This document shows, in pieces, positions 40,615 to 62,348 of a DNA stretch of 64,000 bases. Below the pieces are notes generated by a model. It did no database searches, was not told where the DNA came from, and saw only the letters and a program-made list of their open reading frames with translations. The stretch is from Naegleria gruberi (taxonomy: Eukaryota), in the NCBI GenBank assembly GCA_000004985.1, contig GG738891.1, one strand, 5' to 3'. Numbering within the stretch: the first letter of the stretch is position 1; every line of letters begins with the position of its first letter. The position numbers were made by a program, and so were the translations under genes.

Positions 40615-42809
40615 ATGGATTCGCCCTTCTTTTCATCATCCCTTTCCCAGATGATATCGAAAAATGAACAATTACATCAACAACAACATTCTATGAGAAA
40701 CAACAATAACAATAATACTACTAACAGCATACTGAATAATAGTAATAATAATAATAATAATTGGAATGCTAATAATTTGATGAATCAATTTTCGGTCAAT
40801 CAAAATAGCCTTCAACAAAATCAACAACAACAGTTAGTCATTCCTTCCTTTAGTGATTTACTTTCAATGGGTAGTAATAATAATATAATGTCGAGTAGTA
40901 GTAATAACATGTTCATTAGTCAAATGTCAACAAATAATAGTAATAATAATGTAAATCTTGGCAGAAGAGCAAGTGTAGTTTCGAATAGTAGTAATACGAA
41001 TATGAATAATAACATTGGTAGTAGCAGTGCACCACAAGTACTTTCTTCTTCATCTTCTACGAATAGTAATGAAGCAACTAGCTCTTTTCAAGTTTCGAAT
41101 AATGCAACTGGAGAAGAATCATCACAGTTTCACCCAATTTCGTGTATTAACTGCAGAAAGGTACACAAAAAGTGCGATAAACAATTGCCTAGTTGTGCCA
41201 AATGTGTAGCTAAAGGAGCCACTTGTATAGTAAGTAATTAGTTCAATTGTTTCCATTCTATAAGAAATATTAGTATGAAAATCCAAAGAAAAGAGGAAAA
41301 GGGTCATTAGCTTACCCACACAAAAAGAAGAAACTTGATATTGTTCAACAAGAGGATGATGCCACGACCACTGTTATTCATCAAGAAAGTCCTTCTGCTG
41401 CAAACAAATCTCAGAGTGGATCTAGCTCAACAATTCAAAGTAATCAACTATATTCATTGAGAGTAGTGAATTTAGTGGAATTGTACTTTACTTTTATTTG
41501 TGCTGGACATCCATTCATTAGAAAGGCCAAGTTGGAGTATTTCATTAATAACTTTTTGATTTATTTTGAAAATGAGGTGAACATTGATCAGATTCATTTT
41601 GCTCCAAATGAATTCATTGAAAGCATTGGAGAATTGAAATGTATATATGCATTTTACTTGTCAGTACTGGCACTAGGTCATCAATTATTGGCAAATACAG
41701 AAACATCAGATGGAATTGCTAAACTATGTGAAGTTGAAATTGCAAAATTATCAATTGAATATTATTTGAATTTCTATTGGGCTTGCTCCACATTCCATCT
41801 CTGTATTTATTATAATGGAAGTGGCGTGCTTCAAAAAGCAAGATATTATGTTAGATTTGCTGATTTTTATTGTTTAGAATTCCCTAACATGACAGATATT
41901 ATTCAAAAAAATCTAGTCAAGAGGAAAGTCTTCTCAGTTGGGTATTATGGAGATTCTATCAATGAATTTGCAGTATTTTTCAAAAACATGCCAAATGTAT
42001 TTGAAATTACATCAAATCTCAAGTTGGAAAATATAGTTCTCCCAAATACATTAGAGTATTTACAATCAGCAAACGTTACTCCACAGAATTTCTTACTTTT
42101 CAGACAAGTGATTGATTTTTCTTTTGCAGTCACTACTCAATACAGAACAGAGCTAATGAAAAAGATGACAGATTGCCACTCCCCTCTATTTTTCACTGGA
42201 CAAATAGTTTTGAGATTAATGGTAATGAATGGCTTTAAGCTTTTATTCCTTTTAAAGGTTCCAGAGCATGCCAAACAGATGGCTGAAGAGGTGGCACTCA
42301 GAATTACCTTATTGGCAGATCATGATGTTTTCACATATGCTAATGGAGATGTTTCAATTAGTATCAAGACTGCCTCACGATTCCATTTGGATATTTGTAA
42401 AGATATTGAAGAAGGAAAGAGAACGAATAATGCAACATTGAAAACATCCAACGGAAAGGGATTGAATGTTGACTATTTTTCAATTTTGGAAAAGAATCTC
42501 AAAGCAATGAAAATTCATACCAAGAAATACGTACGTGTTCGCAATGAATGCAGTGGAATGATGAAAGAAATGGAGGAAATGTTGGAAAGACATAGACAGC
42601 GAAGAAATTTAGCAATTACTTTGGATAATCATTGCCAATCATGGATAAGTCAGGGCGATCAGTTCCCAGACCAACAAGATCCTGTTTTGTCATCTGTACT
42701 GACCTACCTCAATGAATTGAATCAACAAATGCCAAAGCAAATGACAACAACACCTCAGGAAGAATTTGATTCAGAATGGAGAGATATTTTTACTGATTCT
42801 CTTCTCTAA
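40615..42809 (+). CDS. Zn(II)2Cys6 binuclear-cluster DNA-binding protein (Gal4-type) with a long C-terminal regulatory region; two exons
   Basis: Exon 1 spans 40615..41229. It has an Asn/Ser-rich N-terminus and then CINCRKVHKKCDKQLPSCAKCVAKGATCI (C-x2-C-x6-C-x6-C-x2-C-x6-C). A 44-nt intron (41230 GTAAGT ... AG 41273) sits in phase 0. Exon 2 spans 41274..42809 and continues YENPKKRGKGSLAYPHKKKK... A basic linker after the cluster is typical of this family. Track ORFs 40615..41241 and 41457..42809 are parts of it. Confidence 0.7.
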
Positions 42810-45321
42810 TAGATTCCCAATATCTCTTTACAATGAGATACCATTTGTTTCACAACTATATCTTCAGGATTATCCCTTTTAAAAGTTTCGAATAATGTAA
42901 GAGCCTTCTCGATATCATTTTTAAAGAATAGAGAGCATGCCTCATTATAAATCTTCCATTTTTGCTTCCTTTCCTGTTCTCTCAATTCATATAACCATTC
43001 ATCTGCTGCATGTTGCGTAGAATCACCCAATTCGTATACTTTCTGTTCGAATTTCAATGTCAAATCGTTTTCCAATAATTCAGAGCTGTGTGGCAATAGA
43101 GAGCTATACTCATCAACCATCAATGATTGAATTTCAGCAATGAATCTTGTATGATATAATATCTCAACTGCTTTGTGCACTTCACTGCTAATTAGAATTT
43201 CTAAATTATAATATTTGGTCAATTGTAACATTTTTGAAAGACTCCAACGAGCATTGGTGATGAGAGTGAAATTTTTCACATCATTGGTTCCTATATTTCC
43301 ACACAGCACTTCCTGCGTAGTAACAGCTACTCTAAATCTGATATTTTCTATTAGATTCTTGAAGCTATCATTTCTAATTAACTTGTTGGAAGCCATTAAC
43401 CATTTCTTATCTCGAGTAATTTTTAGTTTTTCAATAATTGACCTGGCTGCTTGAACTCCCTTCTCCTGGTGTTTAGGGTGGTTAGCTGCTGTGTTAAAAG
43501 TGATGGAAATTGAATCATTTTCAAAATGTCCTAACAAGCCACCTTGAATTTTAGTGACACATGTCAATTGGTCGAAAATATCTGTCAATAAATGGATACT
43601 TTCTGAAGGAGGCATTTGAGATATCAGCTCTGAGAACTCATCTATCAATACACAAACAATAGTTACATGTTTCTTATCCAAATATAACGAAAATAATTGC
43701 TTTGATGTCAGCTGTCCTTTAAATAAATTAACAGTGCTTCTGATTGATGTCCTCATCGAGTCCATAAGTGAAGGATTGACAGCCACTGAGTCGTGTTCAG
43801 CGCTTACTTTCAAATCTCTTGATTTCTTCATAATTTCCATCTTTTCCACTTGATTCAACAAGTGTTGTGGAATAAACGAACGAAACAGACGAATCTGATT
43901 CGTCATTTGAACGAATTGCTTTTGTAATGTTCTCACCTCTGAGAATTTACTCGTTTTAATATCCAAACTTTCCATATCCATTCTCGAAACTGCCTGAAAT
44001 TGTTCAATTAAATTGTGGAATGGTTTTACAATTTTTACAGAAACAAAAATGGAAAGTGAAACTGCAATGCAAATTATTAAACAAGTTCCAATGATTGAAA
44101 CTATTAATCCAATTACCAAAGATCCAATAAAGTTCCATTGAGGTATTGAAAGTACAAAAATCCAATCCACTCCAGTTTCGGCACAGAATCGATTAATGTA
44201 AACGAAATCGTCCAAATGTTCGATTGTGATTGCATTGTTGCAGGGTAAACTTTTAAAGTTATTTCGAGTTTCTTCCAAAATTCTATGAGATAACTGATTA
44301 ATCTTGTCATCTTTGATTGTAAAAATAGTATTTCTCTTGACAGAGCTGTCAGAATTAATTTCTGTAATTTTTAAATCTTTTCTGTCAACTGTTACAAAAA
44401 TTTCAATAAGAAAGTTGAAAAATTAAACATACCAGCTACGAAATATTGCTTATCAGTTTCAAAAATAAAACTCCTCGATCCATCAATTGATCCAATTTTG
44501 GAAATTAAAATGTCAGAAAATCCACTGACAGTCATGTCAAATCCCAGATAATAATCAAATGAATTATCCTTCGATTTGTTAAAGGAATAGCAATATAACA
44601 AGGTAAAGAACGTGTCAATGTTTGGCGTTGTGACATCTACATAACTTCTCGAAAAAACTAATTGATTTGGATTGGCATTACAGCTGTCAGTTAAATCTGA
44701 CAGATCGACAGCAGGTATTACACTTGTAGGTTGATTATCCAATCTCCTTTTACAATACGGATATTTTTCCAAATCAGAATCACATTCATAAAAATACTGA
44801 GCTACCAATGACATGTTTAACCAATTGACTGACGTGCCAGAATAGAAAATTCCCAAAGCATTTCCACTAGGCTCTCCTATATACACCGTAACCACAAATT
44901 CCTTTCTCATTTTCCATTCAGATAAGAATGATTGATAAGTGACTTGTTCGATTTGTTTCGAATTTTGAAAATCTAATAAATATAACAATTGTCCTTTCAT
45001 TACATCCAAGGAAATCGTTGCTTCGACCACTGACTTGGTAACAGACGAAACTATATCAGAAAATTGAGCTTCCCTTTGACCAATCGTTCCTTTGATGGCA
45101 TTCGGAAGTAAAGAACTCATCCAGACAAGTGACAGGACGAGAATACTTGATATAACGAGCAGGGAAAGTAGTAGAATGATACAAAATTTGATAGAGCTAA
45201 AGAATTGGTAGGGTTCATGATTAGTTTCTTGAGTTTCGAATAATGATGAAGGAATATTTTGAGTTTCTTGAGTTTCTTGAGTTTCGGAAAGATTAGGTGT
45301 TATTTGATTAATCTTGACCAT
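42806..45321 (-). CDS. Receptor-type class III nucleotidyl (adenylyl/guanylyl) cyclase homology-domain protein: TM1, extracellular domain, TM2, cyclase domain
   Basis: Exon 1 spans 45321..44433. It encodes an N-terminal cytoplasmic stretch with ETQ repeats, a TM helix FCIILLLSLLVISSILVLSLVWM and an ectodomain of about 250 aa. A 44-nt intron (GTATGT near 44432 to AG near 44389) is in phase 1. Exon 2 runs to the stop at 42806. It encodes a second TM helix (FIGSLVIGLIVSIIGTCLIICIAVSLSIFV) and a cyclase homology domain: VTIVCVLIDEFSEL ... RFRVAVTTQEVLCGNIGTNDVKNFTLITNARWSLSKMLQLTKYYNLEILISSEV. Confidence 0.65.
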
Positions 45322-45565
45322 TTTTTTTGAGATGAGATTTATTGATAGATTTAAAATGTTGAATGATTAGTTTTATGATTTCTTGTCAGCACCTTTCAAA
45401 TTTCCATTTTCAGATTAAGCGAAAAATCAGTTAGATTCGAATAACAATTAGTATTTACATTGTAGTTTATACAAAGAGTTCATATAAAGGAAGTTTTCAA
45501 TTCTTGCAATTTTTTACAATTTTTGTAAACAATTTTTCAATAAAATTTTTTAATTATTTCACAAA

Positions 45566-46468: not shown

Positions 46469-47980
46469 TTATTCTTTCACATTGTCAAAATCCTTGATAG
46501 AATAAATGGAACAAGTATCTAATATGAAATCTCGCATGTAGAGAAAGTTTTTAGCATATTTTAGGCATTTCTTATTGATTCGAATAGCCTTTCTTATAAA
46601 TGCCTCGTTAGTCGAATAATCTGATTCAATTAAGGAAATGGCAAAGTCGTCATCGTTCTTGATTGCTTCCAACATGATATCTTCATCACATCTTGCTTTT
46701 TCTAACTCTTCATATCTCAATGAATGAAATTTCGTCAAGTTTCTAATTTTTCCATAAATAACTTCCTTTGACGAACCAATCGATTGGTGTTTTCTCATCC
46801 AAAAATCAATTCCAACACGTGGAATCCAAATATCTTGTTCATTATCTACTTGTTGTGGAAGATTAGTTGTCAGTTGTTGTTGAACTTGAAGAGAAGCAAA
46901 TTTCAAAGCATCTAGATTTTGGTCAACTGCACTTTTTACAATATCATAATCTGATTTGAATTTCTCAAGAGTAAATTCTAAAGCAAGAGGGTGGTTTCTA
47001 ATAGCTGTTAAATTAATGAGCTCGCTGTCTAGAAGAGGAGGTTTAACAAACTCTAACGCTCGTCCGTCTTGGTTGACTGCGATCATTACAATTGTTTCGT
47101 TGAAACTCTTGATGGAATCATGAGCATATTCTAATTCTAACCCATTTTTCTTGACCAGTTCAGTGACGATGAGTTCATTATTATTGTGAGCTTTCAGATA
47201 TTTTAGAAATTTCGGATAAACTTTCTTCTTGATGCAATTCAATACGAAATTCACTTCCTTCACTAGAGGAGTAATTTCCAGAATGGAAGGTTCTTTCAAT
47301 ACAGCTCTAGTGACTAATTCTTCATTAGTTTTCAATGAAACATCCACAAATCTAATGCAGTTTCCATTTAGTTTTACACATTTCAAAGCAAAATCAAAGT
47401 TTCGTCTCAAATCTTCATGAGCAAATGTCAAATTTACAGGTTTAATCTTCACTGCCTCATAAATCATCTGCTCATCCCTACAAAACTCTTCATTCATTTC
47501 GAATATTTCCTTAACTAATTCTCCTCCACCACTTTCCAAAGCTTTCAATGCAACTATTCGATTCTTCTTTAATTTTTCACTCAAAAATCTATACGAATCA
47601 CCCTCACTCTTCACAGCAGCCAACCCAAACTCAAAATCATCTTTAAACTCAACTGGCATTTCTCTAATAAACAACCCAAATTGACCCAAACATTCCTTTA
47701 TAAAAATTCGATCCGTTATCAAATCTTGTGGAATTTTCTTCATCAAATACTTGGGTCCATATATTCTAGTGAGAGAAAACGCCAAAATCTTTGTGTATTT
47801 CATGGTTTGTAGTTCGTGTGATGATTGTTGGAAAACTGATCGGAGGAGAAAACTCTTGAAAGTTTGATCGAGAATGAGTTGAACGGAAGTTTCGTCCAAA
47901 TCATCTTCTTGATGTGAAATCATTTTTTTTGAAGCTTGAATTTGTTGAATTAAACACGGTGTTATTAGTTGGACTAACAT
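46469..47980 (-). CDS. DUF4116-repeat protein
   Basis: 503-aa ORF with ATG at 47980. It contains repeated about 35-aa units of the DUF4116 type: FEFGLAAVKSEGDSYRFLSEKLKKNRIVALKALESGG, FDFALKCVKLNGNCIRFVDVSLKTNEELVTRAVLKEP, and IVMIAVNQDGRALEFVKPPLLDSELINLTAIRNHPLALEF...YDIVKSAVDQNLDALKFASLQ. Confidence 0.5.
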   Translation of the reverse strand: MLVQLITPCLIQQIQASKKMISHQEDDLDETSVQLILDQTFKSFLLRSVFQQSSHELQTMKYTKILAFSLTRIYGPKYLMKKIPQDLITDRIFIKECLGQFGLFIREMPVEFKDDFEFGLAAVKSEGDSYRFLSEKLKKNRIVALKALESGGGELVKEIFEMNEEFCRDEQMIYEAVKIKPVNLTFAHEDLRRNFDFALKCVKLNGNCIRFVDVSLKTNEELVTRAVLKEPSILEITPLVKEVNFVLNCIKKKVYPKFLKYLKAHNNNELIVTELVKKNGLELEYAHDSIKSFNETIVMIAVNQDGRALEFVKPPLLDSELINLTAIRNHPLALEFTLEKFKSDYDIVKSAVDQNLDALKFASLQVQQQLTTNLPQQVDNEQDIWIPRVGIDFWMRKHQSIGSSKEVIYGKIRNLTKFHSLRYEELEKARCDEDIMLEAIKNDDDFAISLIESDYSTNEAFIRKAIRINKKCLKYAKNFLYMRDFILDTCSIYSIKDFDNVKE

Positions 47981-48208
47981 TCTTTCTATTTATAAGCAAT
48001 TTCCTATAATTTCATGTTCATAATCTTGAATGAACACTTTACAATAATTTACAATTCTGTTTTATAAAAAAACGAAAAATTTCAATATATTAAATTGTTT
48101 AATCGTACTTCCTCCTAGTGCGTAGTGCTATTCCGTTGTTTGATCATCCTTTTGGTTCAAAATATCCCGCTTCAAGGATTCTTTATTCGAAACTCAATTA
48201 CAAAAAAA

Positions 48209-48964
48209 ATGTCAACACTTCAAAATCTCTGCAAACACTATCTGACAGCTCTTGATTCTGCCTTTCAACAAGCACTTGATTATTATCAAGAAATCAACGA
48301 TCAAACAAATGGTTGGGTCAATTACAAAACTACACCTGAACAAGCTCAGTATTTCATTAACAAGAAGAAACATTCGTATTGGATTTGGATGGGAGAAATG
48401 AAGAATGTGGAGATTCCAGAAAGTATTGCCAAAAATTCAAGAGATTTGATCAAGTATTTGGATGAGGAAAGTGAACGAAAGTTGTGGGATGAAGAATTTG
48501 TATCAGGTGTAAAAATTCATGACAAGATTGAAAAGAATTGTAACGAAACTTGTAAGAACGGAAGTGATCATTCTGATTTTAATGTTTATTATAGAGTTTT
48601 CACAGTAGGATCCAAAGCAGTTTCGAATAGAGAATTCGTCATTTCTAGAAATATTTATCAAGATCCAAAGTTGGAAAATGTAACTTGGATGTGCAATCAA
48701 ACACCTTTAGATTTTCCAGATTATGAACACAAGAAGGCACCTACAAATTCATCATGTGTTAGAGGAACAGTTCATGTCACTGCTTGGAGATTCGAACAGT
48801 TGAAATCTTCCATTTCTGGAAAATCTGTTTTTAACATTTCTGTAATTAGTCATTCTGAACCTGGTGGATGGGTGACTGCTTCTTTTTTCAATAATGGAGC
48901 AGGAGATCGTCCAGCATCAGCCGTTGTGAGATTAGTCAAATATTTACAAAGTAAACAAAACTAG
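48209..48964 (+). CDS. START/Bet v1-like (SRPBCC) lipid-binding domain protein
   Basis: The true ATG is at 48209 (MSTLQNLCKHY...); the track start at 48125 is a GTG. The C-terminal half has a START-like pattern: SNREFVISRNIYQDP...VTWMCNQTPLDFPD...SCVRGTVHVTAWRFEQL...ISHSEPGGWVTASFFNNGAGDRPASAVVRLVKYL. Confidence 0.45.
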   Translation: MSTLQNLCKHYLTALDSAFQQALDYYQEINDQTNGWVNYKTTPEQAQYFINKKKHSYWIWMGEMKNVEIPESIAKNSRDLIKYLDEESERKLWDEEFVSGVKIHDKIEKNCNETCKNGSDHSDFNVYYRVFTVGSKAVSNREFVISRNIYQDPKLENVTWMCNQTPLDFPDYEHKKAPTNSSCVRGTVHVTAWRFEQLKSSISGKSVFNISVISHSEPGGWVTASFFNNGAGDRPASAVVRLVKYLQSKQN

Positions 48965-49023
48965 TTTTCAATTTTTTAAAAAAAACCCAAAAATTTTACG
49001 ATTTTTCATCATTACAAAAAAAA

Positions 49024-51834
49024 ATGAATGAACAGGAACCGATTCTCTCCACCACAGGTCGTCTCGCCAATGCTCCCTACAAAATCTTCGATTGGGATCA
49101 AGAGGAGCCTCCTCTCTCTCGTGAAAAAGCCATTGAAAATCTAATGCAAGCGGAATATTACAACTACACTGTTGAGGAGATTATCGAGGAAGGTATTGAT
49201 CCAAATGAATATGGAAGGGCAAGGTTTATTTCCGAAGCCTTGATCATGATGGAAAATACGGGTGATGATGAGAAGGAAAATCAAGTAAAAAAACAACCAT
49301 CAACAATAAGAAGAGAAGATGATGATGAACCAAAGTTTTGGAGGAGAAGGGACTTGTTGATTCCTGGACAATCAATTCAAATTCCTTCAAAGATTACGAC
49401 AGTGCACTTGTTGAAGGAAAAACCGATTGAACATCAAGAGAAAAGTGGTGATGATTATGATAATGATTATGAGGAAGATAATGAGGAAAAGGAAAGCCAG
49501 GATGTTGAAACAATTATCAATCAAGATCGTTGTATTTATATTGGAAGTTTACTATCCCGAACAGAATGTAGTGATTTGATTGATTCCACATCAAGATTGG
49601 GATATGCAGAAATTGATAAGGAATATCCAAAGGAATATCGTAATAGTGAGAGAGTTTTGGTCAAGAGTAAGAAACTTGCGGACATGATTTGGTCTCGAAT
49701 TGTTCCATTCTTGAAAAAGTCTGATATTGATGGTGTGAAACCTTATGGTTTTGATAATGATGGTTGTTGGGTTCCTTGTGGAATTAATGAAGTATTGAGA
49801 TTCAACAAGTATAGTCGTGGAACTTTCTTTAAACCTCACACTGATGCTCAATTCGTTAGAAATGATAATGAAAAATCAATCTTCACAGTGTTGGTCTATT
49901 TGAGCGACTCTTCTGCAGCTACAACCCTTCTGAAAAAGGTTGGAGAGAAGATTGAGGATGATAGTATTTCCTTTGATTTCAAAAAGTTGGCATCCATCAA
50001 ACCAACAGAAGGAAGTGTTGGTAAGTTGAATAGATTAATGATTCTAAATAATAATTTAAAGCTATTTTTAACCATGATCTCTATCATGACGGCCAAAAAC
50101 TATACTATGGATCAAAGTATGTTGTGAGAAGTGAAATCATCTTCAAGAGAATTGATAAGGATAGCATTTATAGAATGGATTATAGAAATAGTGAAGAATT
50201 CAAACGAGTAAAGAACCTCATTGATGATAGCTACGAGTTGGAACGTCAAGGTAATTTAACTCAATCCACCATCAAATATATCCAAGCTATGGACTTGCAG
50301 ACATCCTTGTCCCACTCCATTCAAAGAAAATCAAATAGAAAATTGAGTTTTATTGAAGAAAATCTTCCTGAAGAGGTATTCGTTCACATATTTAACTATT
50401 TAACGGATGAAGAAGTTTGTACGAGTGTCATTCCTATCAATTCTGAAATTAATTCAATTGCTAGAAATGAAACCATGTGGGAACAAAGATTTTCAAAAAA
50501 GTGGGGATCTGAAACAATGGAAAAGTCAATTCTTGATAGAGTCATTAGATATGAATATGATGAAAATTATGAACCTACAAATGAAGAGAAGATTGAATTT
50601 CATAGTAAGGAAAATGAAATTATCAATCTTCTTCAAAAAGATACTCACGATTGGTATAATGCATTTTCTTGCAGATCAAATATGGAAAAATCTTTCAATG
50701 CTGTACTTTTAGATCTTGGGCAGCATACTTACAAGTATGGATTAGCAAGTAATAATGCCTATTGGAGATCAATGACAGCTGTCGGTGAACCTAATCATCC
50801 TCACTTTTATTTACCATCCTATGGATTTGACGATGTTATAACAGGAGATAGATTTGTTCAAGCTCAATACCATTGTAGATTGAACAAGTTCTTTAACTCT
50901 AAAGGAGTACCCAAGAAGAAACTGCTCAAAATTTTCCTTTATCAGCTCTATAAGGAAGATTTAAGAGTTAACTTACAAGAACACCCTCTTCTTATGGCTG
51001 TGCCTCCTCACTGGGATAAGGAATACTTGAAAAAGGTGGAACAGGTTGCAGTAAGTTCTCTATATTGCAAATTATATTTAATTTCATTGATAGTTTTCTT
51101 TAGGTATTCCAGCAGTTCACTTTGTGGACTCGTTCAAGCTACTTGCATTGTATTATCAAAAACCAACATCCTTAATTATTAGTGCAACACCAAATGGATC
51201 GACATGTGTACCAGTCATAGATTGTGAGTCTAAGACTGCATGTATGGATATGAATGTGTTTAACATGTACGAGGAGTATAGGAATATGAATGAAGATATG
51301 CGCTATTATGAAATGACTTTCAGAGAGGAAGTATCAGAATTTTTGAAAATTGCCCCTTGCAGTCCGAGCCAAGATCAAAAAGAATTTAATGAATTTGTAC
51401 AAAACCTTGAACCTTTCGAATGGACTTCATACATGGTTTCACCAATCAATGAAAGAGCCAATATTTCGGAAATTTTCTACTCTCATGTATGGGAAAATGT
51501 CCAAAAATCAATCACCTTAATTCGAAATAATCAATCTCTTTCCAATATTGAAAAAGATCAAATTCTAAACAATATTTTAATTGTAGGTGGATTCTCAGCA
51601 TTAACAGGATTTAGAGAAAGAATTAAGAAGGACATTTTGGAATATCTTGGACAAGAATACTCTCCATCATTTACTTTTAGAGAACAGAAGGCTGATTATT
51701 CTGTCAGAAAAACAGGTATCAAGGTCAGCATTGTTGGACAAGATATGGACGTAGTTGGAGGAGCTAGAATTGTTTCCAATCTCTCAAACTTTAGAGAAAT
51801 TTGTAGTTACAATCAAGCATATAACAAGTATTAA
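49024..51834 (+). CDS. Composite ORF of at least 3 exons: prolyl-4-hydroxylase-like 2OG-Fe(II) oxygenase domain, then an F-box motif, then a divergent actin-related protein (Arp)
   Basis: Exon 1 (49024..50020) carries P4Hc-like RCIYIGSLLSRTECSDLI ... and an HxD motif, FKPHTDAQF. A 41-nt intron (GTAAGT 50021 ... AG 50061) in phase 1 restores the second-His region, AIFNHDLYHDGQKLYYGSKYVVRSEIIF. The same frame then continues with no stop for about 1.1 kb. It passes through an F-box (LPEEVFVHIFNYLTDEEVCTSVIPINSEINSIARNETMWEQRFSKKW). It then enters the actin-fold N-terminus (NAVLLDLGQHTYKYGLASNNAYWRSMTAVGEP ... EHPLLMAVPPHWDKEYLKKVEQVAV). After a third intron near 51041-51104 the actin fold continues in track ORF 51124..51834: IPAVHFVDSFKLLALYYQK ... 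ILIVGGFSALTGFRERIKKDI ... VSIVGQDMDVVGGARIVSNLSNF. The obvious GTAAGT donor of that intron is out of phase by 1 nt. A GT 4 nt downstream (a|GTTCTC, about a 49-nt intron) would restore the frame. Confidence 0.55.
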
Positions 51835-51938: not shown

Positions 51939-52652
51939 TTATTTTGAAGGTGTGTGATTTACAAATTCCCACTTTCTCTTTCTTGGAATAGTTACTGGTT
52001 CTGTTGTTTCCAAAATTGGTTGGTATTGGATATTTTCATATGCAGTTATATTTTTTCTTAGTTCTGCCCTTGCACTGTTTTCATAGTCGTTTTTGTTGAT
52101 GATAATTACATTATATTCGAAATTACGACAGAGTGGCCTAAAAAACTTTCCTTGAATTTCTAAATAAATTCTTCCTTTGTAGTTTTTGCATTGGGGATAT
52201 TGAGAGATGATATGGATTGCACGATATGCTGTTTCTTTTTTTGGAAAAGTAATAGTTGAAGTTCCAAGCAACGTCAAATCTCTACTTTTTTTAGGTTTGT
52301 GTTTACCATAAATTAGCATTTCAAAACATAATTCAGAAGAATTTTTGCTACAAATAATTTTGAAATCATTGTGAACTGTTTGAATTTCGCTTTTGCTTGG
52401 CAAGATGTTAATGCTAGATGACATTGGCATTTGTTGAGCGGTTTGTTGATTTTGAATTTGTGAGACGTTTTGCAATTGATTTTCATATGGCATATGAATT
52501 AATGTTGGTTGCCGATTCCAGAATTGAGTGTTAATTTTGAAACTCAGTAACTTCATCCTGATAGAGGATAGTTGAGAGTGGTGAGAATATCGAGGGACTT
52601 GAGGCAGTGTTATTGGATGTAACTTGGTGAGTATTATCGGTGATATCTTCAT
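51939..52652 (-). CDS. Hypothetical protein (237 aa), no confident domain
   Basis: ORF with ATG at 52652 and a Gln/Asn-rich N-terminal third. The C-terminal part (FKIICSKNSSELCFEMLIYGK...IYLEIQGKFFRPLCRNFEYNVIIINKNDYENSARAELRKN...) is vaguely LURP-one/scramblase-like, but I cannot support a family call. Confidence 0.4.
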   Translation of the reverse strand: MKISPIILTKLHPITLPQVPRYSHHSQLSSIRMKLLSFKINTQFWNRQPTLIHMPYENQLQNVSQIQNQQTAQQMPMSSSINILPSKSEIQTVHNDFKIICSKNSSELCFEMLIYGKHKPKKSRDLTLLGTSTITFPKKETAYRAIHIISQYPQCKNYKGRIYLEIQGKFFRPLCRNFEYNVIIINKNDYENSARAELRKNITAYENIQYQPILETTEPVTIPRKRKWEFVNHTPSK

Positions 52653-53396
52653 AACGAAGGAAACAAATCATCGTCATCATTAATTTCATGAGTGTCAGCT
52701 TGTTGGTGTTCATACAAGGTGCAACTGAGTTTTTATACTCACATTCTCTTATTTTAGATTTTCATTACAACTCACAATTATTTTTAATTTTAGTAATGGA
52801 TGATTGTTAGGTACTTGGCCACGCTCACGTTTATTTTTAATTTTCAAGCATAATCAAAGTCCTTGGACAAGAATCGAACACGTGGTTTCTTCCTTGACAA
52901 TCTACAGTGTTTGACCTTTCGAATAATGGTGTGTACCATTAAAATTGTCTAACATTTTAAAAGTAGGCAAAAAAAAATGCCTCCATTTGCTTCTCACTAC
53001 AACCTGCTTCATTCAATAAATCATTTATAAAATTATGAGTACATACAATATGAAATAAATCATCAACTTGTTTAAATGTGAAATACATTCTAATTCTTTA
53101 ATTATTAATACTTCAATGTTCTAAACATTTTCTACATCTTTTCCGATGTTGTTACATCATTCCATGATGAGGAAGTAAAAAAATTCAATTTCAGTCCAAT
53201 AAAGTTAAACAAGTAATGTAATTGGTATGTATCGAATTTCTCGACCAATAAACACTAAATAAACACATGAGGTGGAATACCAGCAACTAATATTAATCTT
53301 CGTGTTCTAATAATTTAATGACTAACAACAAACGAGCGTGAAAATATTTATTTAAAATGAAAAGATTTCACAAGAATCAGGGTCAATGATGGTCAA

Positions 53397-53660
53397 TTGA
53401 CTCATTTTGGAAGTTTTGGAGCTTTCCATGGACCTCAAGCTATTGCTGATTTCTTCCAAAATGTTTTATTTGGACAAGTTGGCGCCAGAAATCCACAATT
53501 GACTTCACATGTTATTCAAAGAATTGACGAATCAACAATTTATAAATTGGGTAAAGTTCTGGTGGAGAAATTGAAGCTCCTTATACAGTTGTTTGGACTA
53601 TGGGTCAAGAAGGAGAATATAAGATTAAAATTGATACTTTCTAACACTTTTTTGAATTAG
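53397..53660 (+). CDS. Small ORF (87 aa) inside the duplicated segment; coding status doubtful
   Basis: Track ORF MTHFGSFGAFHGPQAIADFFQNVLFGQVGARNPQLTSHVIQRIDESTIYKLGKVLVEKLKLLIQLFGLWVKKENIRLKLILSNTFLN. Its 3' half is repeated identically on the - strand at 62207..62340. I see no domain. Confidence 0.2.
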   Translation: MTHFGSFGAFHGPQAIADFFQNVLFGQVGARNPQLTSHVIQRIDESTIYKLGKVLVEKLKLLIQLFGLWVKKENIRLKLILSNTFLN

Positions 53661-53802
53661 TTTACAAATATTTTTCAATTGAAAATTAAAGTTGCTATAA
53701 ATCAACAATAAGGAAAGATTGTCGTACAATTCAATTAATAATCATAATTAGTAACCACACTAAAATGGAAAGCAAATTCTCATTATTCGAAACTCAAAAA
53801 AA

Positions 53803-54086
53803 ATGCCACAATTACATGTAAATCCACTGCATCCTCCCAATCACACCAGAACAAGAGGAAATTCAGGTCCAACTCACCATCATCACTCGCACCACTCACA
53901 CCATCACCCAACGTCAACACATCACACGAGACAAGTCAGTAATCCATCTCCACCTTCTAACAGCAGTCCAGATAACATAATTAAATTTATTTCTGATGAA
54001 GATGAAAAGCATAACTGTACAATGATCGGATATTCATTTGCATCCTTCTTGGTGTCAACTTTATTATCAGTGACATTGGCAGTTGT
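53803..54086 (+). CDS. 5' part of a second copy of the His-rich type II membrane protein gene, truncated by a 51-N gap
   Basis: The first 95 codons (MPQLHVNPLHPPNHTRTRGNSGPTHHHHSHHSHHHPTSTHH...SVTLAV) and 140 nt of upstream DNA are identical to the full copy at 62064..61042 (- strand). Confidence 0.5.
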
Positions 54087-54137
54087 NNNNNNNNNNNNNN
54101 NNNNNNNNNNNNNNNNNNNNNNNNNNNNNNNNNNNNN
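54087..54137. other. Assembly gap (51 N) joining the truncated membrane-protein gene copy to a PARP 3' fragment
   Basis: N run. Confidence 0.9.
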
Positions 54138-54500
54138 GGACATGGTAATTATTTCGGTAAGTTTCTATTTCATTACTGACCTATTTCAATAACCAAAAAA
54201 GCCGACAAATTCAAGAAATCTCTCGGATATACCAGTTTCACAGGATCCTATTGGGCAGGAGGTTCTTCAGATAAGGCCTATCTTGCTGTATTTGATGTAC
54301 ATGTTGGCAAACAATTGGAAGTTACTAATTGGGATCACACACTTTCGGATTTCACAGAAGAATCCTTGACGAATTATAATGGACAAGATTATGATTCATT
54401 ATTTGCAAAAGCAAAGAATGGATTCTTGCTTAATAATGAATTTATAGTGTATAACTCAGCTCAATGCACAATCAAGTTTATGGTTGAAATTAAACAATAG
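54138..54500 (+). CDS. 3' end of a PARP catalytic-domain gene copy: last codons of exon 1, a 45-nt intron, and the complete last exon
   Basis: The sequence reads GHGNYF|gtaagt...45 nt...aaaaag|ADKFKKSLGYTSFTGSYWAGGSSDKAYLAVFDVHVGKQLEVTNWDHTLSDFTEESLTNYNGQDYDSLFAKAKNGFLLNNEFIVYNSAQCTIKFMVEIKQ*. It matches the PARP C-terminal consensus (G-x-YFAD...SKS...LLYNEYIVY). The track ORF 54315..54500 is its tail. Confidence 0.6.
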
Positions 54501-54534
54501 TGAAGATTCTATTAATTAAAAAATGTTATAAAAG

Positions 54535-54607
54535 AGAAACAAGATGGATTTGAACCACCGACCTTGGGGGTGAGAGCCCCATATTCTCCCCGCTGAACTA
54601 CTGTTCC
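54535..54607 (-). tRNA. tRNA-Glu (anticodon CTC) candidate
   Basis: Folded by hand on the - strand: acceptor GGAACAG/TTGTTTC with two G-U pairs, D-arm GTTC-AGCGGGGA-GAAT, anticodon arm TGGGG-CTCTCAC-CCCCA (loop CU-CUC-AC), variable loop AGGTC, and T-arm GGTGG-TTCAAAT-CCATC. A T-run (tcttttataacatttttt) follows downstream as a Pol III terminator. Confidence 0.55.
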
Positions 54608-54813: not shown

Positions 54814-54821
54814 AAAAAAAA

Positions 54822-56080: not shown

Positions 56081-56169
56081 CCCGTTGTAGTCCAATGGTT
56101 AGGACATGTGACTCAGTCCAACAAGACTAAAGTTCTCACAAGATCCTGGTTCAACTCCAGGCAATGGGT
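56081..56169 (+). tRNA. Intron-containing tRNA gene (type I; anticodon uncertain)
   Basis: Acceptor CCCGTTG/CAATGGG with one G-U pair, D-arm GTCC-AATGGTTA-GGAC, anticodon stem TGTGA/TCACA enclosing 24 nt (a 7-nt loop plus about a 17-nt intron pairing AGTC with GACT), variable loop AGATC, and T-arm CCTGG-TTCAACT-CCAGG. A T9 run follows about 25 nt downstream. With canonical intron placement the loop reads CU-CAG-U; that anticodon conflicts with the type I structure, so the amino-acid identity is unresolved. Confidence 0.5.
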
Positions 56170-56368
56170 ATCCAATTATTGCAATCTGTTTCAATTTTTT
56201 TTTAACCTTCAGCAAACCTTAAAAGAACTATGCAATTTTCACCCCAACTCCGACCTATTCCTTTCGAATACTGTATCAAGGTCACAATTTCACTCCACTC
56301 TTTTCCACTTCGCTCCAAATTAAAAAAATCCAAGATTCTAATTTAGCGCCAAAATCAAATCTAAAAAA

Positions 56369-59010: not shown

Positions 59011-59384
59011 TTTATTATTTTCACAAATTTGAAATAAATCTAAAAAAATCATCTTATTATATAGAAATCTTTTTTAATGAACTAATGGAATTTTGAAAAC
59101 TTTAGATTATTCATCGTCACTTACAAACTCCAAAAATAGGAACTTTGATTATCTGTGATGATAACACTTTTGATCTGTACAGTTCCTTGTTCACGCAGTT
59201 GTGTTCAGTTTCTTATCCACCATACAACAAATTTCCACTCACATAAACTGTCAAAAAATTCTTAAAAAAATTTCAACATCCAACAGACAGTTTCAACACA
59301 TTCTTGGATACATCATTATTCCATCATCTATTCAATCCCAAGAACATTAGTTTTCTTTCGTCTCTTCAAATACGAAACAACACA

Positions 59385-59530
59385 CTCTTCGCGCGCAAAC
59401 TTCTTTCAAAAACTACATACAAATTGTTTTGATCATCAAAAAAGAAGCGCGAAAACAAAACCTTCCTCTCTCGAGCTCTCGCTACTTTTTTCATCATCAA
59501 AAAGTGATAAGAAACACAAAGCCTCTCCGC
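59385..59530 (+). promoter_or_regulatory. GC-enriched CGCG-containing elements upstream of the G-alpha gene (candidate promoter)
   Basis: The elements are ctcttcGCGCGCaaacttc (59385-59403), gaaGCGCGaaaac (59445-59457) and ctcgagctctcgctac (59471-59486). They sit in an otherwise more than 80 percent AT region, 80-220 nt upstream of the ATG at 59608. Confidence 0.3.
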
Positions 59531-59607
59531 TCTACTAATATAACAACAACAACAACAACAACAATAACATCAATCATATAATTATAATTTTATAAATTTT
59601 AATAATA

Positions 59608-61014
59608 ATGGGAAATTGTTTTGGAAAACCAAGTCCTCCCAATGATAATTCTCAAAGAGGCAACGACAATAAAACAACAAAAACAGATAATTCAAAAGGA
59701 CATCATACGAATGGAGGAGTGAATGGTTCACCTTCTAATGCTACTGCTGATCCTAAAGCTACAGATAATGCTGCCGTTGATTTGAAAATATTATTATTGG
59801 GAAGTGGTGATAGTGGTAAAAGTAAGTAGTACTTGTTGTTCTTGTTTATTGAAGATTTAATTTCGTATGAACTTTCTAATAATATTATTACTTTAAATTG
59901 TATTTTTATACTTAATAATTATAATAATAATATAGGTACCCTTTTCAAACAAATTAAAATTACAGAAACTGGTGGATTTACACATCAAGAAGTTTTACGT
60001 TATCAGAGTACTATTTACGGAAATTTAATACATACTATTGATAGTTTGGTGGATCTGCTGAAAGAAAAGGGAAATATTGCTAGATTGCTTCCACAAAACA
60101 ATGAAAGAGTTTCCAGGNTGAAGGAAGTGACAGGGATGCCACACGACACTATACAGAGGAAATGGCAAATGACATTCAAGAATTGNCCAATGATCCAGAT
60201 ATAATTAATGCTTTTAACAATATGAGATATGAAGCACACGTTTTTGAAGGTTTGTTTTCTTGTATTCACCATTTAATCAATTCTTTCAATTGTAATAACA
60301 ACAAATTAGGTGCTACATACTTTTTCAAGGATTTAGAGAGATTACGTCCACCAGATTATAAACCAAATGATACTGACATTTTATATTGTAGACAAAAGAC
60401 AACAGGTATTTCAGATGTCACATTCGAATTTAATACAAAGAAACTTAAAGTTGTTGATGTTGGAGGTCAAAGACCAGAAAGAAGAAAATGGATTAATGCT
60501 TATGATGAAGTTGATGCTATTATATTTGTTGCCAGTCTTAGTGATTTTGATCAAAAATGTTATGAAGATGATTTGGTAAGTTTTTTTGCTTTACTTTCAA
60601 ATTAATTTTACTATATTTATGTATTATAAATATTGATTTATGAATATAAAATAGACTAATAGAATGCAAGAATCAATAGATTTATTTTCAAAAACAATCA
60701 ATGATGAACGGTTTAGAGATACCCCAATAATACTGCTACTGAACAAGACTGATGTTTTCACACGAAAACTTCAACAAAAATCCATTCGAACCTTGTTTGC
60801 TGACGAATATACTGGACCAGATAAATTTGAGGAATCAGTCAAGTTTATTGAGAACAAATACTTGAGTACTAACCGATTCGATCCTAATAGAATTTTCACA
60901 TTTTGGAGTTGTGCCACACAAACCGATGATATCAAGGAAGTGTTTGGACAAGTCAAAAAGAGACTTTTGGAAGCCAAATTCCCTGAACTCAGAGAATCGC
61001 ACCCTTCGAATTAA
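59608..61014 (+). CDS. Heterotrimeric G-protein alpha subunit, 4 exons
   Basis: The protein starts MGNCFGK (myristoylation/palmitoylation motif) and has about a 60-aa insert before the P-loop KILLLGSGDSGKS|T. Intron 1 is 59822-59935 (114 nt, GTAAGT..AG). Exon 2 reads LFKQIKITETGGFTHQEVLRYQ... Intron 2 is about 60250-60309 (60 nt, GTTTGT..AG). Exon 3 carries KTTGISDVTFEFNTKKLKVVDVGGQRPERRKWINAYDEVDAIIFVASLSDFD. Intron 3 is 60576-60654 (79 nt). Exon 4 reads TNRMQESIDLFSKTINDERFRDTPIILLLNKTDVF...FWSCATQTD, with the stop at 61012-61014. An apparent 1-nt frameshift falls between 60118 and 60165, next to ambiguous n bases (60118, 60186). Confidence 0.85.
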
Positions 61015-61041
61015 ATTAATTTATTTATTACAATAAGCTCA

Positions 61042-62064
61042 TTATTTGTCTCTAAAAGTCATGTATCCAACCACATACAACATTTGAGAATATCCAAATC
61101 CATCAGCAATTTCAGAACTAGTCAATGGTGTCAATACTGTCAAAATCCATTGTTCTTGGGGATGTAAAATATTTCTTCTCAACACTGCAATTACCTCATT
61201 GGAACCATCCAATTTTACAATTGGCATCTCATAGGAAATGAAATCAATCCTCTGCTGAACCATTGCTCTATTCGCTCCCTTTGCATCTCTCAAATAATAA
61301 GTCTTGACTCCAGAGTTAACTTGTAATTTTATAGAACCACCAAAAATTCCCTGATCTGCACTATTCAATCCAACAATGGAACTCACACTAGGAACACAAC
61401 TAGCTGAATTATCATAATGTCCAATCTGAATCGTATCAGATAGAGTAAAATAAGAACCCATTGCAAATGAAATTCCCTTTCCATCATTCCAAATAAAATC
61501 CATCATTGTGGGGACACTCCAAGTTCTCAATTGTAAACTTCCAATGCTTTGTTTTGTGTATTGAGAGAGTTTTCCAGATGATAGTAATGAAATAATTGAA
61601 TCACCACTCAAATCATTGTATTTTTCAATGACAAATTGACCTTGTGAAAACATGTCTCTTGTCATGACAAAACTGTCATTAGTAGAAAGAGTTTCAATAC
61701 TTGAAAGTGTAGTTAAATAATTAGAATTATAAACAAAACAATTTTTAGGTGCCTTGCTTGAAATTGCTCCTAAAACAATGACAACTGCCAATGTCACTGA
61801 TAATAAAGTTGACACCAAGAAGGATGCAAATGAATATCCGATCATTGTACAGTTATGCTTTTCATCTTCATCAGAAATAAATTTAATTATGTTATCTGGA
61901 CTGCTGTTAGAAGGTGGAGATGGATTACTGACTTGTCTCGTGTGATGTGTTGACGTTGGGTGATGGTGTGAGTGGTGCGAGTGATGATGGTGAGTTGGAC
62001 CTGAATTTCCTCTTGTTCTGGTGTGATTGGGAGGATGCAGTGGATTTACATGTAATTGTGGCAT
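61042..62064 (-). CDS. His-rich type II single-pass membrane protein of unknown function (full copy)
   Basis: 340-aa ORF with ATG at 62064. It has a His-rich cytoplasmic N-terminus (THHHHSHHSHHHPTSTHH), a TM helix MIGYSFASFLVSTLLSVTLAVVIVLGAI, and an extracellular/lumenal domain of about 250 aa. Confidence 0.55.
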   Translation of the reverse strand: MPQLHVNPLHPPNHTRTRGNSGPTHHHHSHHSHHHPTSTHHTRQVSNPSPPSNSSPDNIIKFISDEDEKHNCTMIGYSFASFLVSTLLSVTLAVVIVLGAISSKAPKNCFVYNSNYLTTLSSIETLSTNDSFVMTRDMFSQGQFVIEKYNDLSGDSIISLLSSGKLSQYTKQSIGSLQLRTWSVPTMMDFIWNDGKGISFAMGSYFTLSDTIQIGHYDNSASCVPSVSSIVGLNSADQGIFGGSIKLQVNSGVKTYYLRDAKGANRAMVQQRIDFISYEMPIVKLDGSNEVIAVLRRNILHPQEQWILTVLTPLTSSEIADGFGYSQMLYVVGYMTFRDK

Positions 62065-62348
62065 TTTTTTTGAGTTTCGAATAATGAGAATTTGCTTTCC
62101 ATTTTAGTGTGGTTACTAATTATGATTATTAATTGAATTGTACGACAATCTTTCCTTATTGTTGATTTATAGCAACTTTAATTTTCAATTGAAAAATATT
62201 TGTAAACTAATTCAAAAAAGTGTTAGAAAGTATCAATTTTAATCTTATATTCTCCTTCTTGACCCATAGTCCAAACAACTGTATAAGGAGCTTCAATTTC
62301 TCCACCAGAACTTTACCCAATTTATAAATTGTTGATTCGTCAATTCTT

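What the first reader, a model, noticed from the sequence alone, without database searches (positions are those of the whole stretch)
41091..62090. Recurrent CpG-containing word ATTATTCGAAACT(C/T)AA, twice immediately upstream of start codons
CpG is rare in this genome, yet the 14-16-mer occurs at 48183-48198 (11 nt before the START-domain gene ATG: tttattcgaaactcaattacaaaaaaaATG). It occurs at 53784-53799 and again at 62069-62084 on the - strand, 7 nt before the His-rich membrane gene ATG (cattattcgaaactcaaaaaaaATG). It also occurs inside coding sequence at about 45235-45250 on the - strand, where it encodes SLFETQ. Two further coding occurrences are at about 42885-42898 on the - strand (encoding LFETF) and 41093-41106 on the - strand (antisense to the coding strand). 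A 12-mer core is at 52922-52933. Six or more occurrences of a 14-mer in about 40 kb of non-N sequence is far above expectation. The two 5'-UTR instances share extended context, suggesting a core promoter/TSS element or a short dispersed repeat.
Basis: seen in the sequence. Interest (0 to 1): 0.5.

Follow-up and report, generated by a model that had tools for sequence, protein, structure and literature searches.

The report
Over-represented exact DNA word in Naegleria
The flagged 14-16-mer is the long form of an exact CpG-centred word, TATTCGAAA(C/G), about 20 times too frequent in this stretch of Naegleria gruberi; it lies mostly inside genes on either strand, so it is a DNA-level recognition word of unknown reader, not a general promoter element.

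Summary
The window is Naegleria gruberi. ATTCGAAACT occurs 10 times against 0.07 expected. The true core is the exact 9-mer TATTCGAAA: 21 hits against 0.9 expected. ATTCGAAA (27 hits) is the 4th commonest 8-mer in a CpG-depleted sequence. Single-mismatch variants sit near background (at most about 4x). Information content is confined to about 13 bp (c-a-t-T-ATTCGAAA-S-t), so it is not a dispersed repeat or mobile element.

Of 26 independent sites, 22 lie inside long ORFs, 14 sense and 8 antisense. They force use of the rare Ser codon TCG (YSK, VSN) or TTC|GAA. A synonymous-codon shuffle gives 3.9 sites against 22 observed.

Only two independent genes (START, His-rich) carry the word just 5' of the ATG. 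The third start-proximal copy is a 100% identical, gap-flanked inverted duplicate. Most genes have a TCA...A-run...ATG start context without the word.

Sampled loci of N. fowleri, N. lovaniensis and an unidentified homologue-bearing ENA metagenome contig lack the enrichment.

Best reading: a lineage-specific recognition site for a sequence-specific DNA-binding factor, maintained at the DNA level. A neutral repair or conversion drive is the main rival. Whether it is genome-wide could not be tested.

The parts
48184..48193 (+). TATTCGAAAC, 15 nt before the ATG (48209) of the START-domain gene; context tttATTCGAAACTCAattacaaaaaaaATG
   Evidence: The gene is 100% identical to an NCBI N. gruberi protein. 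The site is unchanged in the second strain or haplotype, L001.
62074..62083 (-). TATTCGAAAC, 9 nt before the ATG (62064) of the His-rich membrane-protein gene; full 16-mer at 62070-62085
   Evidence: The N. fowleri, N. lovaniensis and L005 orthologues/homologues lack the word upstream.
53784..53793 (+). Duplicate of the 62074 site. It lies inside a 568-bp segment (53519-54086) that is 100% identical to the reverse complement of 61781-62348. Both segments end at N gaps.
   Evidence: Likely an assembly duplicate or a very recent inverted duplication; not counted as independent.
45233..45242 (-). TATTCGAAAC (full 16-mer 45229-45244) in ORF 44392-45321(-), sense, TTA|TTC|GAA|ACT = LFET, +80 from the ATG
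44956..44963 (-). ATTCGAAA in the same ORF, sense, AAT|TCG|AAA = NSK, +358
42885..42894 (-). TATTCGAAAC in ORF 42806-43981(-), sense, LFET, +1088
41092..41101 (-). TATTCGAAAC antisense in ORF 40615-41241(+) (Zn2Cys6 gene exon), gene frame GTT|TCG|AAT = VSN, +478
40978..40987 (-).
48620..48629 (-).
   Evidence: conserved in L001
55124..55131 (-).
30682..30691 (+).
31368..31375 (+). ATTCGAAA(G) sense in the same gene, KFE, +1091
32820..32829 (+). TATTCGAAAC antisense in Sel1 gene 32401-34188(-), VSN
33215..33798 (-). Five TATTCGAAAG sites (33215, 33375, 33582, 33702, 33789) sense in the Sel1-repeat gene. Four are TAT|TCG|AAA = YSK and one is LFE. They are partly paralogous repeat units, so were down-weighted.
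29305..29515 (+). Two ATTCGAAA sites (29305 KFE; 29508 YSK) sense in the REJ/PKD gene
47497..47504 (-). ATTCGAAA sense in DUF4116 gene 46469-47980(-), IFE, +476
   Evidence: conserved in L001
51414..51527 (.). Two ATTCGAAA sites (51414 -, 51520 +) in the actin-like/F-box gene exon 51244-51834(+)
52115..52122 (+). ATTCGAAA antisense in ORF 51939-52652(-), NFE, +530
52916..52925 (-).
56261..56270 (-). TATTCGAAAG outside long ORFs, about 95 nt downstream of tRNA-Leu 56081-56169
63185..63192 (+). ATTCGAAA antisense in PARP-like ORF 62552-63646(-), FSN, +454

Best explanation
The 14-16-mer is the best-matching tail of a family of sites built on an exact, asymmetric, CpG-centred word, consensus c-a-t-T-ATTCGAAA-(C/G)-t. 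This word is kept at high density in Naegleria gruberi DNA as such, not through the proteins or mRNAs it lies in.

I read it as the recognition site of a sequence-specific DNA-binding factor that binds as a monomer, because the flanks are asymmetric. The factor would work in either orientation. Sites lie mainly in the 5'-proximal part of gene bodies (about 0.3-0.5 kb after the start codon) and occasionally directly against the TCA...A-run...ATG start context.

Shown: the excess, the exactness, the DNA-level nature, the intragenic location, the lack of orientation bias, and the absence of the excess from the sampled N. fowleri and N. lovaniensis loci.

Inferred: that a protein reads it, that selection rather than a mutational drive maintains it, and that it acts on transcription or chromatin near gene 5' ends.
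For: Excess and exactness:
- TATTCGAAA occurs 21 times against 0.9 expected (order-2 Markov, log10 p = -21). It is the top non-microsatellite 9-mer.
- ATTCGAAA is the 4th most frequent 8-mer in absolute count despite CpG observed/expected of 0.44.
- It holds 27 of 36 TTCGAA sites and 6% of all CpGs.
- Every single-base variant sits near background, at most about 4x. TATTCGAAA is 3x commoner than any other TATTNNAAA.

DNA-level cause:
- The palindrome TTCGAA carries asymmetric flanks (A..A read on one strand, T..T on the other) in 27 of 36 cases, against about 22% expected. An mRNA or peptide signal does not explain this.
- Sites use Ser TCG, which is 5% of Ser codons, in 6 of 9 YSK and 4 of 8 VSN tripeptides. 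YSK occurs 9 times against 2.3 expected.
- Phe TTC is not avoided before GAA, although it is avoided before other G-initial codons.
- A synonymous-codon shuffle gives 3.9 +/- 1.8 sites (maximum 11 in 1000) against 22 observed.

Short site, not a repeat: information is confined to -4..+9 and there are no enriched flank words.

Position:
- 11 of 20 intra-ORF sites, in 9 of 11 site-bearing ORFs, lie 302-530 nt from the first ATG, in both orientations. Scan-statistic Monte Carlo gives p about 0.013.
- 2 of 4 non-ORF sites abut an ATG in sense orientation.

Other:
- All three sites in the region covered by a second strain or haplotype (98.3% identity) are unchanged.
- The excess is lineage-specific in the sample: 0.73 per kb here, against 0.14, 0.14 and 0 per kb in N. 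fowleri, N. lovaniensis and an unidentified homologue-bearing contig.
Against: - No binding factor, transcript, chromatin or methylation data were available.
- Only 37 kb of N. gruberi sequence, from a scaffold end with telomere-like repeats, could be examined. A regional peculiarity is therefore not excluded.
- The positional clustering is post hoc, rests on first-ATG ORF starts, and has p about 0.01.
- Conservation in the second haplotype (3 of 3 sites) has no statistical power.
- Regulatory sites are usually enriched outside coding sequence, and here the opposite holds.
- A sequence-specific repair or gene-conversion drive would give the same exactness without any function for individual sites.
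Confidence: 0.4

Rival explanations
1. Neutral DNA-level drive. A sequence-specific repair, gene-conversion or nuclease-avoidance process in the N. gruberi lineage creates or protects this exact word. Examples would be short-patch mismatch repair tied to a site-specific modification enzyme, or conversion away from a cleavable near-cognate word. Copies accumulate wherever a near-match exists, and individual sites have no function.
For: - Enrichment is for the exact word, with variants at background.
- There is no orientation bias relative to genes.
- Sites occur in coding sequence at the cost of rare codons.
- The excess is missing from the sampled N. fowleri and N. lovaniensis loci, so it arose recently.
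- CpG depletion in Naegleria is not explained by present-day 5mC levels (PMC12695648). Unusual CpG-context processes are therefore conceivable.
Against: - The word is 9x above even the composition expectation without CpG depletion (my arithmetic from the frequencies), so mere protection from CpG loss is insufficient.
- The presumed precursor or product words TATTTGAAA and TATTCAAAA are not depleted.
- Known modification and repair systems of this kind recognise palindromes, whereas the flanks here are asymmetric.
- A drive does not predict clustering 0.3-0.5 kb from start codons or placement against two ATGs.
Confidence: 0.25
2. The word is a promoter or TSS-proximal element. It sits just 5' of an initiator-like TCA and helps fix the start site. 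The intragenic copies would be cryptic, internal or antisense promoters.
For: - Two independent genes have TATTCGAAAC-TCA-(A-rich)-ATG, with 9-15 nt between word and ATG, in sense orientation.
- 2 of 4 non-ORF sites are of this kind, against roughly 0.2-0.35 expected under a uniform spread (my arithmetic).
- The other haplotype (L001) carries an extra AAATTCGAAAAT about 45 nt upstream of the 49024 ATG.
- Six of the eight antisense intragenic sites lie 300-530 nt inside genes. Antisense promoters reading back over the 5' end would fit this.
Against: - About 20 of 22 gene starts lack it, and the shared start context is TCA...A-run...ATG alone.
- 85% of sites are in ORFs, with higher density than in intergenic DNA.
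- No ORF start follows the intragenic copies.
- It is not conserved upstream of the N. fowleri, N. lovaniensis or L005 orthologues/homologues of the His-rich gene.
Confidence: 0.15
3. Remnants of a short dispersed repeat or mobile element (MITE or SINE end, or a transposon target or footprint).
For: There are many copies on both strands. Three independent copies share 15-16 nt.
Against: - No similarity beyond about 13 bp.
- No terminal inverted repeats, target duplications or shared flank words.
- Copies are in frame inside unrelated ORFs without length disruption.
- The only extended identity is the gap-flanked duplicate.
- The 26-nt indel in L001 has AAAAT microhomology, typical of slippage or deletion rather than insertion.
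Confidence: 0.04
4. By-product of composition, codon usage or a recurrent peptide motif, or chance.
For: Five copies lie in Sel1 repeat units (YSKA), which are paralogous. In ORFs the word avoids the frame that needs the rare Arg codon CGA.
Against: - Dinucleotide shuffles give 0.07-0.23 against 9-17 observed.
- Markov models give 0.9 against 21.
- A synonymous-codon shuffle gives 3.9 against 22.
- Sites occur in two sense frames, in antisense frames and outside ORFs.
- The excess remains after collapsing the Sel1 and duplicate copies.
Confidence: 0.02

Closest known systems
Bacterial over-represented genomic words: DNA uptake sequences (Haemophilus USS, Neisseria DUS), cyanobacterial HIP1 (GCGATCGC), Chi (from general knowledge)
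   Same: An exact 8-10-mer at roughly one per 1-2 kb, on both strands, inside coding sequence. It is accommodated in particular reading frames and skews codon and tripeptide usage. It is lineage-specific.
   Different: This is a eukaryote with no uptake or RecBCD machinery. The core is palindromic but the flanks are asymmetric. There is a possible positional preference relative to gene starts. Genome-wide status is untested. This is an analogy of pattern, not membership.
CpG-centred housekeeping promoter or insulator words such as Drosophila DRE (TATCGATA, bound by DREF/BEAF-32), and yeast general regulatory factor sites (Reb1, Abf1) (from general knowledge)
   Same: A short, near-exact, CpG-containing word bound by a dedicated factor, very abundant in a compact genome, sometimes abutting the start site.
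   Different: Those are concentrated in promoters and intergenic DNA. Here 85% of sites are in ORFs. No factor is known and the sequence differs.
Protist core-promoter elements next to an initiator (Trichomonas vaginalis Inr TCA+1 with M3/M5 motifs; Entamoeba GAAC box) (from general knowledge)
   Same: Very short 5' leaders. In two genes the word sits directly 5' of a TCA followed by an A-run and the ATG.
   Different: There is no fixed position or orientation for most copies. It is present at fewer than 10% of the gene starts examined. The sequence is unrelated.
TFIIIC B box and extra-TFIIIC (ETC/COC) sites, GGTTCGANTCC (PMC3395662)
   Same: It shares the TTCGA core. ETC sites are abundant non-tRNA binding sites with architectural roles.
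   Different: The flanking GG and TCC are absent (TA-TTCGAA-ACT). The two tRNA genes in the window have canonical GGTTCAAATCC and GGTTCAACTCC.

Membership tests
Core promoter / TSS element | Fixed position and orientation relative to the transcription or translation start | tested here: not met
   Only 2 independent sites lie 9-15 nt before an ATG in sense orientation. 22 of 26 are inside ORFs, from +80 to +2626, with 14 sense and 8 antisense.
Core promoter / TSS element | Present at a substantial share of genes, or of a co-regulated class | tested here: not met
   About 2 of 22 long-ORF starts. The common context is TCA...A-run...ATG without the word.
Core promoter / TSS element | Transcripts initiate at or just downstream of the element | not testable with these tools
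   No CAGE, RACE or RNA-seq data were accessible.
Core promoter / TSS element | Conserved upstream of orthologues | tested here: not met
   It is absent upstream of the N. fowleri (L002), N. lovaniensis (L177) and L005 orthologues/homologues of the His-rich gene. These are distant, at 42-46% amino-acid identity.
Dispersed repeat / mobile element | Homology extending beyond the core, terminal repeats or target-site duplications | tested here: not met
   Information content is at background outside -4..+9. There are no enriched flank k-mers. Self-BLAST finds only the gap-flanked duplicate.
TFIIIC B box / ETC site | GGTTCGANTCC consensus, including the G53-equivalent GG and the 3' TCC | tested here: not met
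   The word is TATTCGAAAC(T). The window's tRNAs carry canonical B boxes.
Heat-shock element | Inverted nGAAn units with 2-nt spacing (TTCnnGAA) | tested here: not met
   TTC and GAA are contiguous in every copy. The consensus is from general knowledge.
Genomic signature word (USS/DUS/HIP1-like pattern) | Exact word, about 1 per kb, both strands, in coding sequence with frame and peptide bias | tested here: met
   (within this 37-kb sample).
Genomic signature word (USS/DUS/HIP1-like pattern) | Excess holds across the whole genome | not testable with these tools
   The NCBI N. gruberi assembly is not indexed in the look-up of encoding contigs. The metagenome and viral scans returned only background.
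CpG-context survival artefact | Frequency no higher than non-CpG analogues; symmetric flanks | tested here: not met
   TATTCGAAA has 21 hits, against at most 8 for any other TATTNNAAA. Flanks are asymmetric in 27 of 36 TTCGAA.

The most novel reading that the evidence does not exclude
N. gruberi carries, genome-wide (tens of thousands of copies if the density here holds), a lineage-specific exact DNA word. It is maintained by selection inside genes, in either orientation, preferentially about 0.4 kb downstream of start codons. That would make it a eukaryotic counterpart of bacterial signature words (USS/HIP1/Chi-like), read by an unknown factor that marks gene 5' bodies for chromatin, recombination or replication purposes, and strong enough to reshape codon and tripeptide usage.
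Probability: 0.2. Interest if true: 0.8.

Novelty: new variant of a known kind. Interest (0 to 1): 0.55.

Why it matters
Almost nothing is known about cis-elements in Heterolobosea. I found no paper pairing this word with Naegleria.

A 9-10-bp word that overrides codon preference in both orientations and is absent from sister species points to a strong sequence-specific DNA-level process. That process could be a factor with thousands of intragenic sites or a novel repair or conversion drive.

Either reading is directly testable with the existing N. gruberi assemblies and the published H3K4me3, 6mA, nanopore and RNA-seq data. Either would also bear on why Naegleria is CpG-depleted despite very low 5mC.

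For annotation, the practical message is that the word should not be used as a promoter or TSS marker.

Tried and rejected
1. More N. gruberi DNA. The look-up of encoding contigs returned only a 3-kb ENA metagenome contig of the same locus (L001). The paralogue P0002 is not on record. Seven of the 10 window ORFs tested are absent from the protein collection, and the rest are NCBI-only or come from the same locus. A genome-wide test was therefore impossible.
2. A DUF4116 family search, meant to reach other N. gruberi loci, gave no further N. gruberi proteins.
3. A viral-contig scan with TTATTCGAAACTCA gave only single matches in every locus listed (85 of 120 shown), consistent with random background. 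This does not support a giant-virus promoter or an integrated element.
4. A metagenome-contig scan with CATTATTCGAAACTCAA gave 51 single hits, about the chance number. The one locus with extra ATTCGAAA copies (L162, with L146 and L173, the same marine sequence) lacks the flank consensus.
5. Literature searches for the word with Naegleria, for a Naegleria core promoter and for Naegleria motifs found nothing relevant.
6. The TFIIIC B-box idea was rejected on sequence.
7. A decayed-site search (ATTCAAAA, ATTTGAAA) showed no clear consensus flanks, apart from a modest excess of G after ATTTGAAA (7 of 17).
8. A search for a bipartite partner motif found none.
9. A runs test on site orientation along the chromosome gave z of about -1.4 to -1.9, not significant (hand calculation).
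10. Synteny with N. fowleri and N. lovaniensis is too patchy for site-level comparison. The paralogue protein alignment was uninformative about codons.

Full report
**Source and layout.** The START-domain ORF at 48209-48964 is 100% identical to an NCBI 'predicted protein [Naegleria gruberi]'. Two further ORFs match NCBI N. gruberi models exactly, so the window is N. gruberi. Only 41 kb of the 64 kb is sequence. Positions 1-1634 and 9764-10645 hold telomere-like (CCCAAA)n blocks, and 24541-64000 is gene-dense with mostly uninterrupted ORFs. GC is 33% and CpG observed/expected is 0.42-0.44.

**The observation.**
- ATTCGAAACT occurs 10 times against 0.07 expected from dinucleotide shuffles.
- The 13-mer ATTATTCGAAACT occurs 5 times exactly and 4 more times with one mismatch, against 0.19 expected.
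- The 16-mer with up to 2 mismatches occurs 9 times against 0.23.
- The copies at 53782 and 62070 are the same sequence. Segment 53519-54086 is 100% identical to the reverse complement of 61781-62348, and both end at N gaps. A neighbouring 192-bp piece is also duplicated but in swapped order. This looks like a scaffolding duplicate or a very recent inverted duplication.
- So two independent genes, START and the His-rich membrane protein, have the word before their ATG.

**The real unit is shorter and far more frequent.**
- ATTCGAAA occurs 27 times between 29.3 and 63.2 kb.
- That is 27 of the 36 TTCGAA sites and 6% of all 452 CpGs.
- In absolute count it is the 4th most common 8-mer, level with poly-A and simple AT-rich words.
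- TATTCGAAA occurs 21 times against 0.9 expected (log10 p = -21). It is the top word once trinucleotide repeats are set aside.
- TATTCGAAAS occurs 17 times against 0.13.
- Every single-base variant of TATTCGAAA is near background, at most about 4x.
- No other TATTNNAAA exceeds 8 copies.
- With the duplicate and three Sel1 copies removed, information content is confined to positions -4 to +9, giving c-a-t-T-ATTCGAAA-(C/G)-t.
- No flanking k-mer is enriched.
- This is therefore a compact site of about 10-13 bp, not the remnant of a longer repeat.

**Where the sites lie.**
- Of 26 independent sites, 22 lie inside long ORFs (0.87 per kb) and 4 outside (0.34 per kb).
- Fourteen intra-ORF sites are sense and 8 antisense, or 10 to 8 after collapsing the Sel1 repeats.
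- In ORFs the word almost always sits as TAT|TCG|AAA (Tyr-Ser-Lys), as xxA|TTC|GAA|Axx (Phe-Glu), or, when antisense, as GTT|TCG|AAT (Val-Ser-Asn) or T|TTC|GAA|T.
- The frame that needs the rare Arg codon CGA is used once.

**The cause is at the DNA level.**
- TCG is only 5% of Ser codons, yet it encodes Ser in 6 of 9 YSK and 4 of 8 VSN tripeptides.
- YSK itself occurs 9 times against 2.3 expected.
- Phe TTC is avoided before other G-initial codons (16-31%) but not before GAA (41%).
- Shuffling synonymous codons within each ORF gives 3.9 +/- 1.8 sites (maximum 11 in 1000) against 22 observed.
- The palindromic core has asymmetric flanks: A..A on one strand, which reads T..T on the other. The palindromic alternatives ATTCGAAT and TTTCGAAA are rare. 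That is natural for a double-stranded DNA word and hard to derive from an mRNA or peptide signal.
- The word is also about 9x above plain base-composition expectation (my arithmetic). Escape from CpG depletion alone therefore cannot explain it.

**Promoter reading.**
- The upstream 70 nt of the long ORFs show a common context, TCA followed by an A-run and the ATG. Examples are 30277, 34188, 37149, 45321, 49024 and 63646.
- Only START (tttATTCGAAACTCAattacaaaaaaaATG) and His-rich (attATTCGAAACTCAaaaaaaATG) add the word. Its 3' end supplies the TCA.
- Two of four non-ORF sites are of this type, which is more than a uniform spread predicts (about 0.2-0.35 expected, my arithmetic).
- The second haplotype or strain, L001 (98.3% identical over 46743-49746), keeps all three sites in its span. 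It also carries a 26-nt segment with AAATTCGAAAAT about 45 nt upstream of the 49024 ATG. The window lacks this segment through an AAAAT-microhomology deletion.
- A promoter-proximal role at some genes therefore remains possible. The word is not the general core promoter, and most copies are not promoter-proximal.
- None of the intragenic copies is followed by a plausible ORF start.

**An unexpected regularity.** Eleven of 20 intra-ORF sites, in 9 of 11 site-bearing ORFs, lie 302-530 nt after the ORF's first ATG, irrespective of orientation. A scan-statistic Monte Carlo that corrects for choosing the interval gives p about 0.013. This is post hoc and depends on ORF starts, three of which are confirmed by NCBI models. 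It is the one feature that favours a positioned, functional element over a purely mutational word.

**Comparison with relatives.**
- Homologues of the His-rich gene were retrieved with 10-kb flanks from N. fowleri (L002) and N. lovaniensis (L177), and on a 9.6-kb ENA metagenome contig of unidentified origin (L005).
- None has the word upstream of the gene.
- ATTCGAAA density is 0.14, 0.14 and 0 per kb, against 0.73 per kb in the window.
- Unbiased k-mer ranking in those loci yields only trinucleotide repeats.
- In this sample the excess is therefore specific to the N. gruberi lineage.
- Naegleria is reported to be CpG-depleted despite very low 5mCG, with 5mC confined to transposons (PMC12695648). 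A simple methylation-deamination account of CpG contexts is therefore not available.

**Comparison with known elements.**
- The TFIIIC B box (GGTTCGANTCC, PMC3395662) shares only TTCGA. The two tRNA genes in the window have canonical B boxes.
- Heat-shock elements need TTCnnGAA spacing.
- Rfam finds only the two tRNAs.
- The pattern resembles bacterial signature words (USS/DUS, HIP1, Chi) in exactness, density, presence in coding sequence and effect on peptides.
- It resembles CpG-centred promoter or insulator words such as Drosophila DRE in being a short, near-exact site that can abut the start.
- It fits neither family on location or sequence. I found no paper linking this word to Naegleria (and also 11, 15, 31, 64).

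**Limits.**
- The family search did not reach other N. gruberi loci.
- Motif scans of the viral and metagenome collections returned only chance-level single hits.
- Whether the excess is genome-wide or a feature of this telomere-proximal region is therefore untested.

**Verdict.**
- The dispersed-repeat interpretation is rejected.
- The promoter or TSS interpretation holds at most for two genes.
- The most likely account (about 0.4) is a lineage-specific recognition site for a sequence-specific DNA-binding factor. It would be maintained at the DNA level, orientation-independent and mainly in 5'-proximal gene bodies.
- A neutral sequence-specific repair or conversion drive (about 0.25) is the main rival.
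- A simple genome-wide count and metagene profile would decide most of this.

Noticed in passing
window 1-269, 785-1130, 9764-10183: There are three blocks of perfect or near-perfect hexamer repeat (CCCAAA/ACCCAA)n, separated by large N gaps. This is telomere-like repeat at the scaffold end (TTTGGG on the other strand). Having three separate blocks suggests several telomeric contigs were scaffolded together.
   Followed up: partly
window 53076-54329 vs 61781-64000: An inverted duplicate: 568 bp at 100% identity and 192 bp at 99.5%. Both pieces are flanked by 50-nt N gaps and their order is swapped. An 85-bp match lies 1.2 kb out of register. This is probably a mis-scaffolded haplotype or contig copy, and it truncates a second copy of the His-rich gene at 53803-54192.
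   Followed up: partly
window 24541-26197: A tandem array with periods 240 and 362 nt (70-80% matches) encodes EGF-like Cys-rich repeats at the 5' part of a large REJ/PKD-domain gene (to 29932). It accounts for other over-represented words, such as GAACTAGTTC and AGTTCACAAGA.
   Followed up: partly
window, 25 nt upstream of most long-ORF ATGs (e.g. 30277, 34188, 37149, 45321, 49024, 63646): There is a common start context: TCA, then an A-rich run, directly before the ATG. This suggests very short leaders and an initiator-like TCA, as in Trichomonas. It is a better candidate for the general core promoter signal than the flagged word.
   Followed up: no
window intra-ORF sites; Intragenic ATTCGAAA sites cluster 302-530 nt after the first ATG in 9 of 11 site-bearing ORFs, in both orientations (scan-statistic p about 0.013).
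   Followed up: partly
L001 2250-2275 vs window 48994: The second N. gruberi strain or haplotype (an ENA metagenome contig, 98.3% identity) has a 26-nt segment bounded by AAAAT microhomology. It is missing from the window and contains AAATTCGAAAAT upstream of the 2OG-oxygenase-like gene.
   Followed up: yes
window 54535-54607(-), 56081-56169(+): Two tRNA genes, Glu-CTC and Leu-CAG, lie between protein-coding genes. Their B boxes are canonical. One motif site lies about 95 nt downstream of tRNA-Leu.
   Followed up: yes
L002 6432-10972 vs window 37979-62064: There is partial synteny with N. fowleri. Homologues of the 37979, DUF4116 and His-rich genes lie within 4.5 kb there, but are spread over 24 kb here with many unrelated genes between them. 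The N. gruberi region is therefore expanded or rearranged.
   Followed up: no
window 40615-41241(+): A fungal-type Zn2Cys6 binuclear cluster domain lies at the end of an ORF that probably continues after an intron (41457-42809). This is one of several signs of introns, along with the actin-like/F-box gene 50175-51834 and the truncated PARP-like ORF.
   Followed up: no
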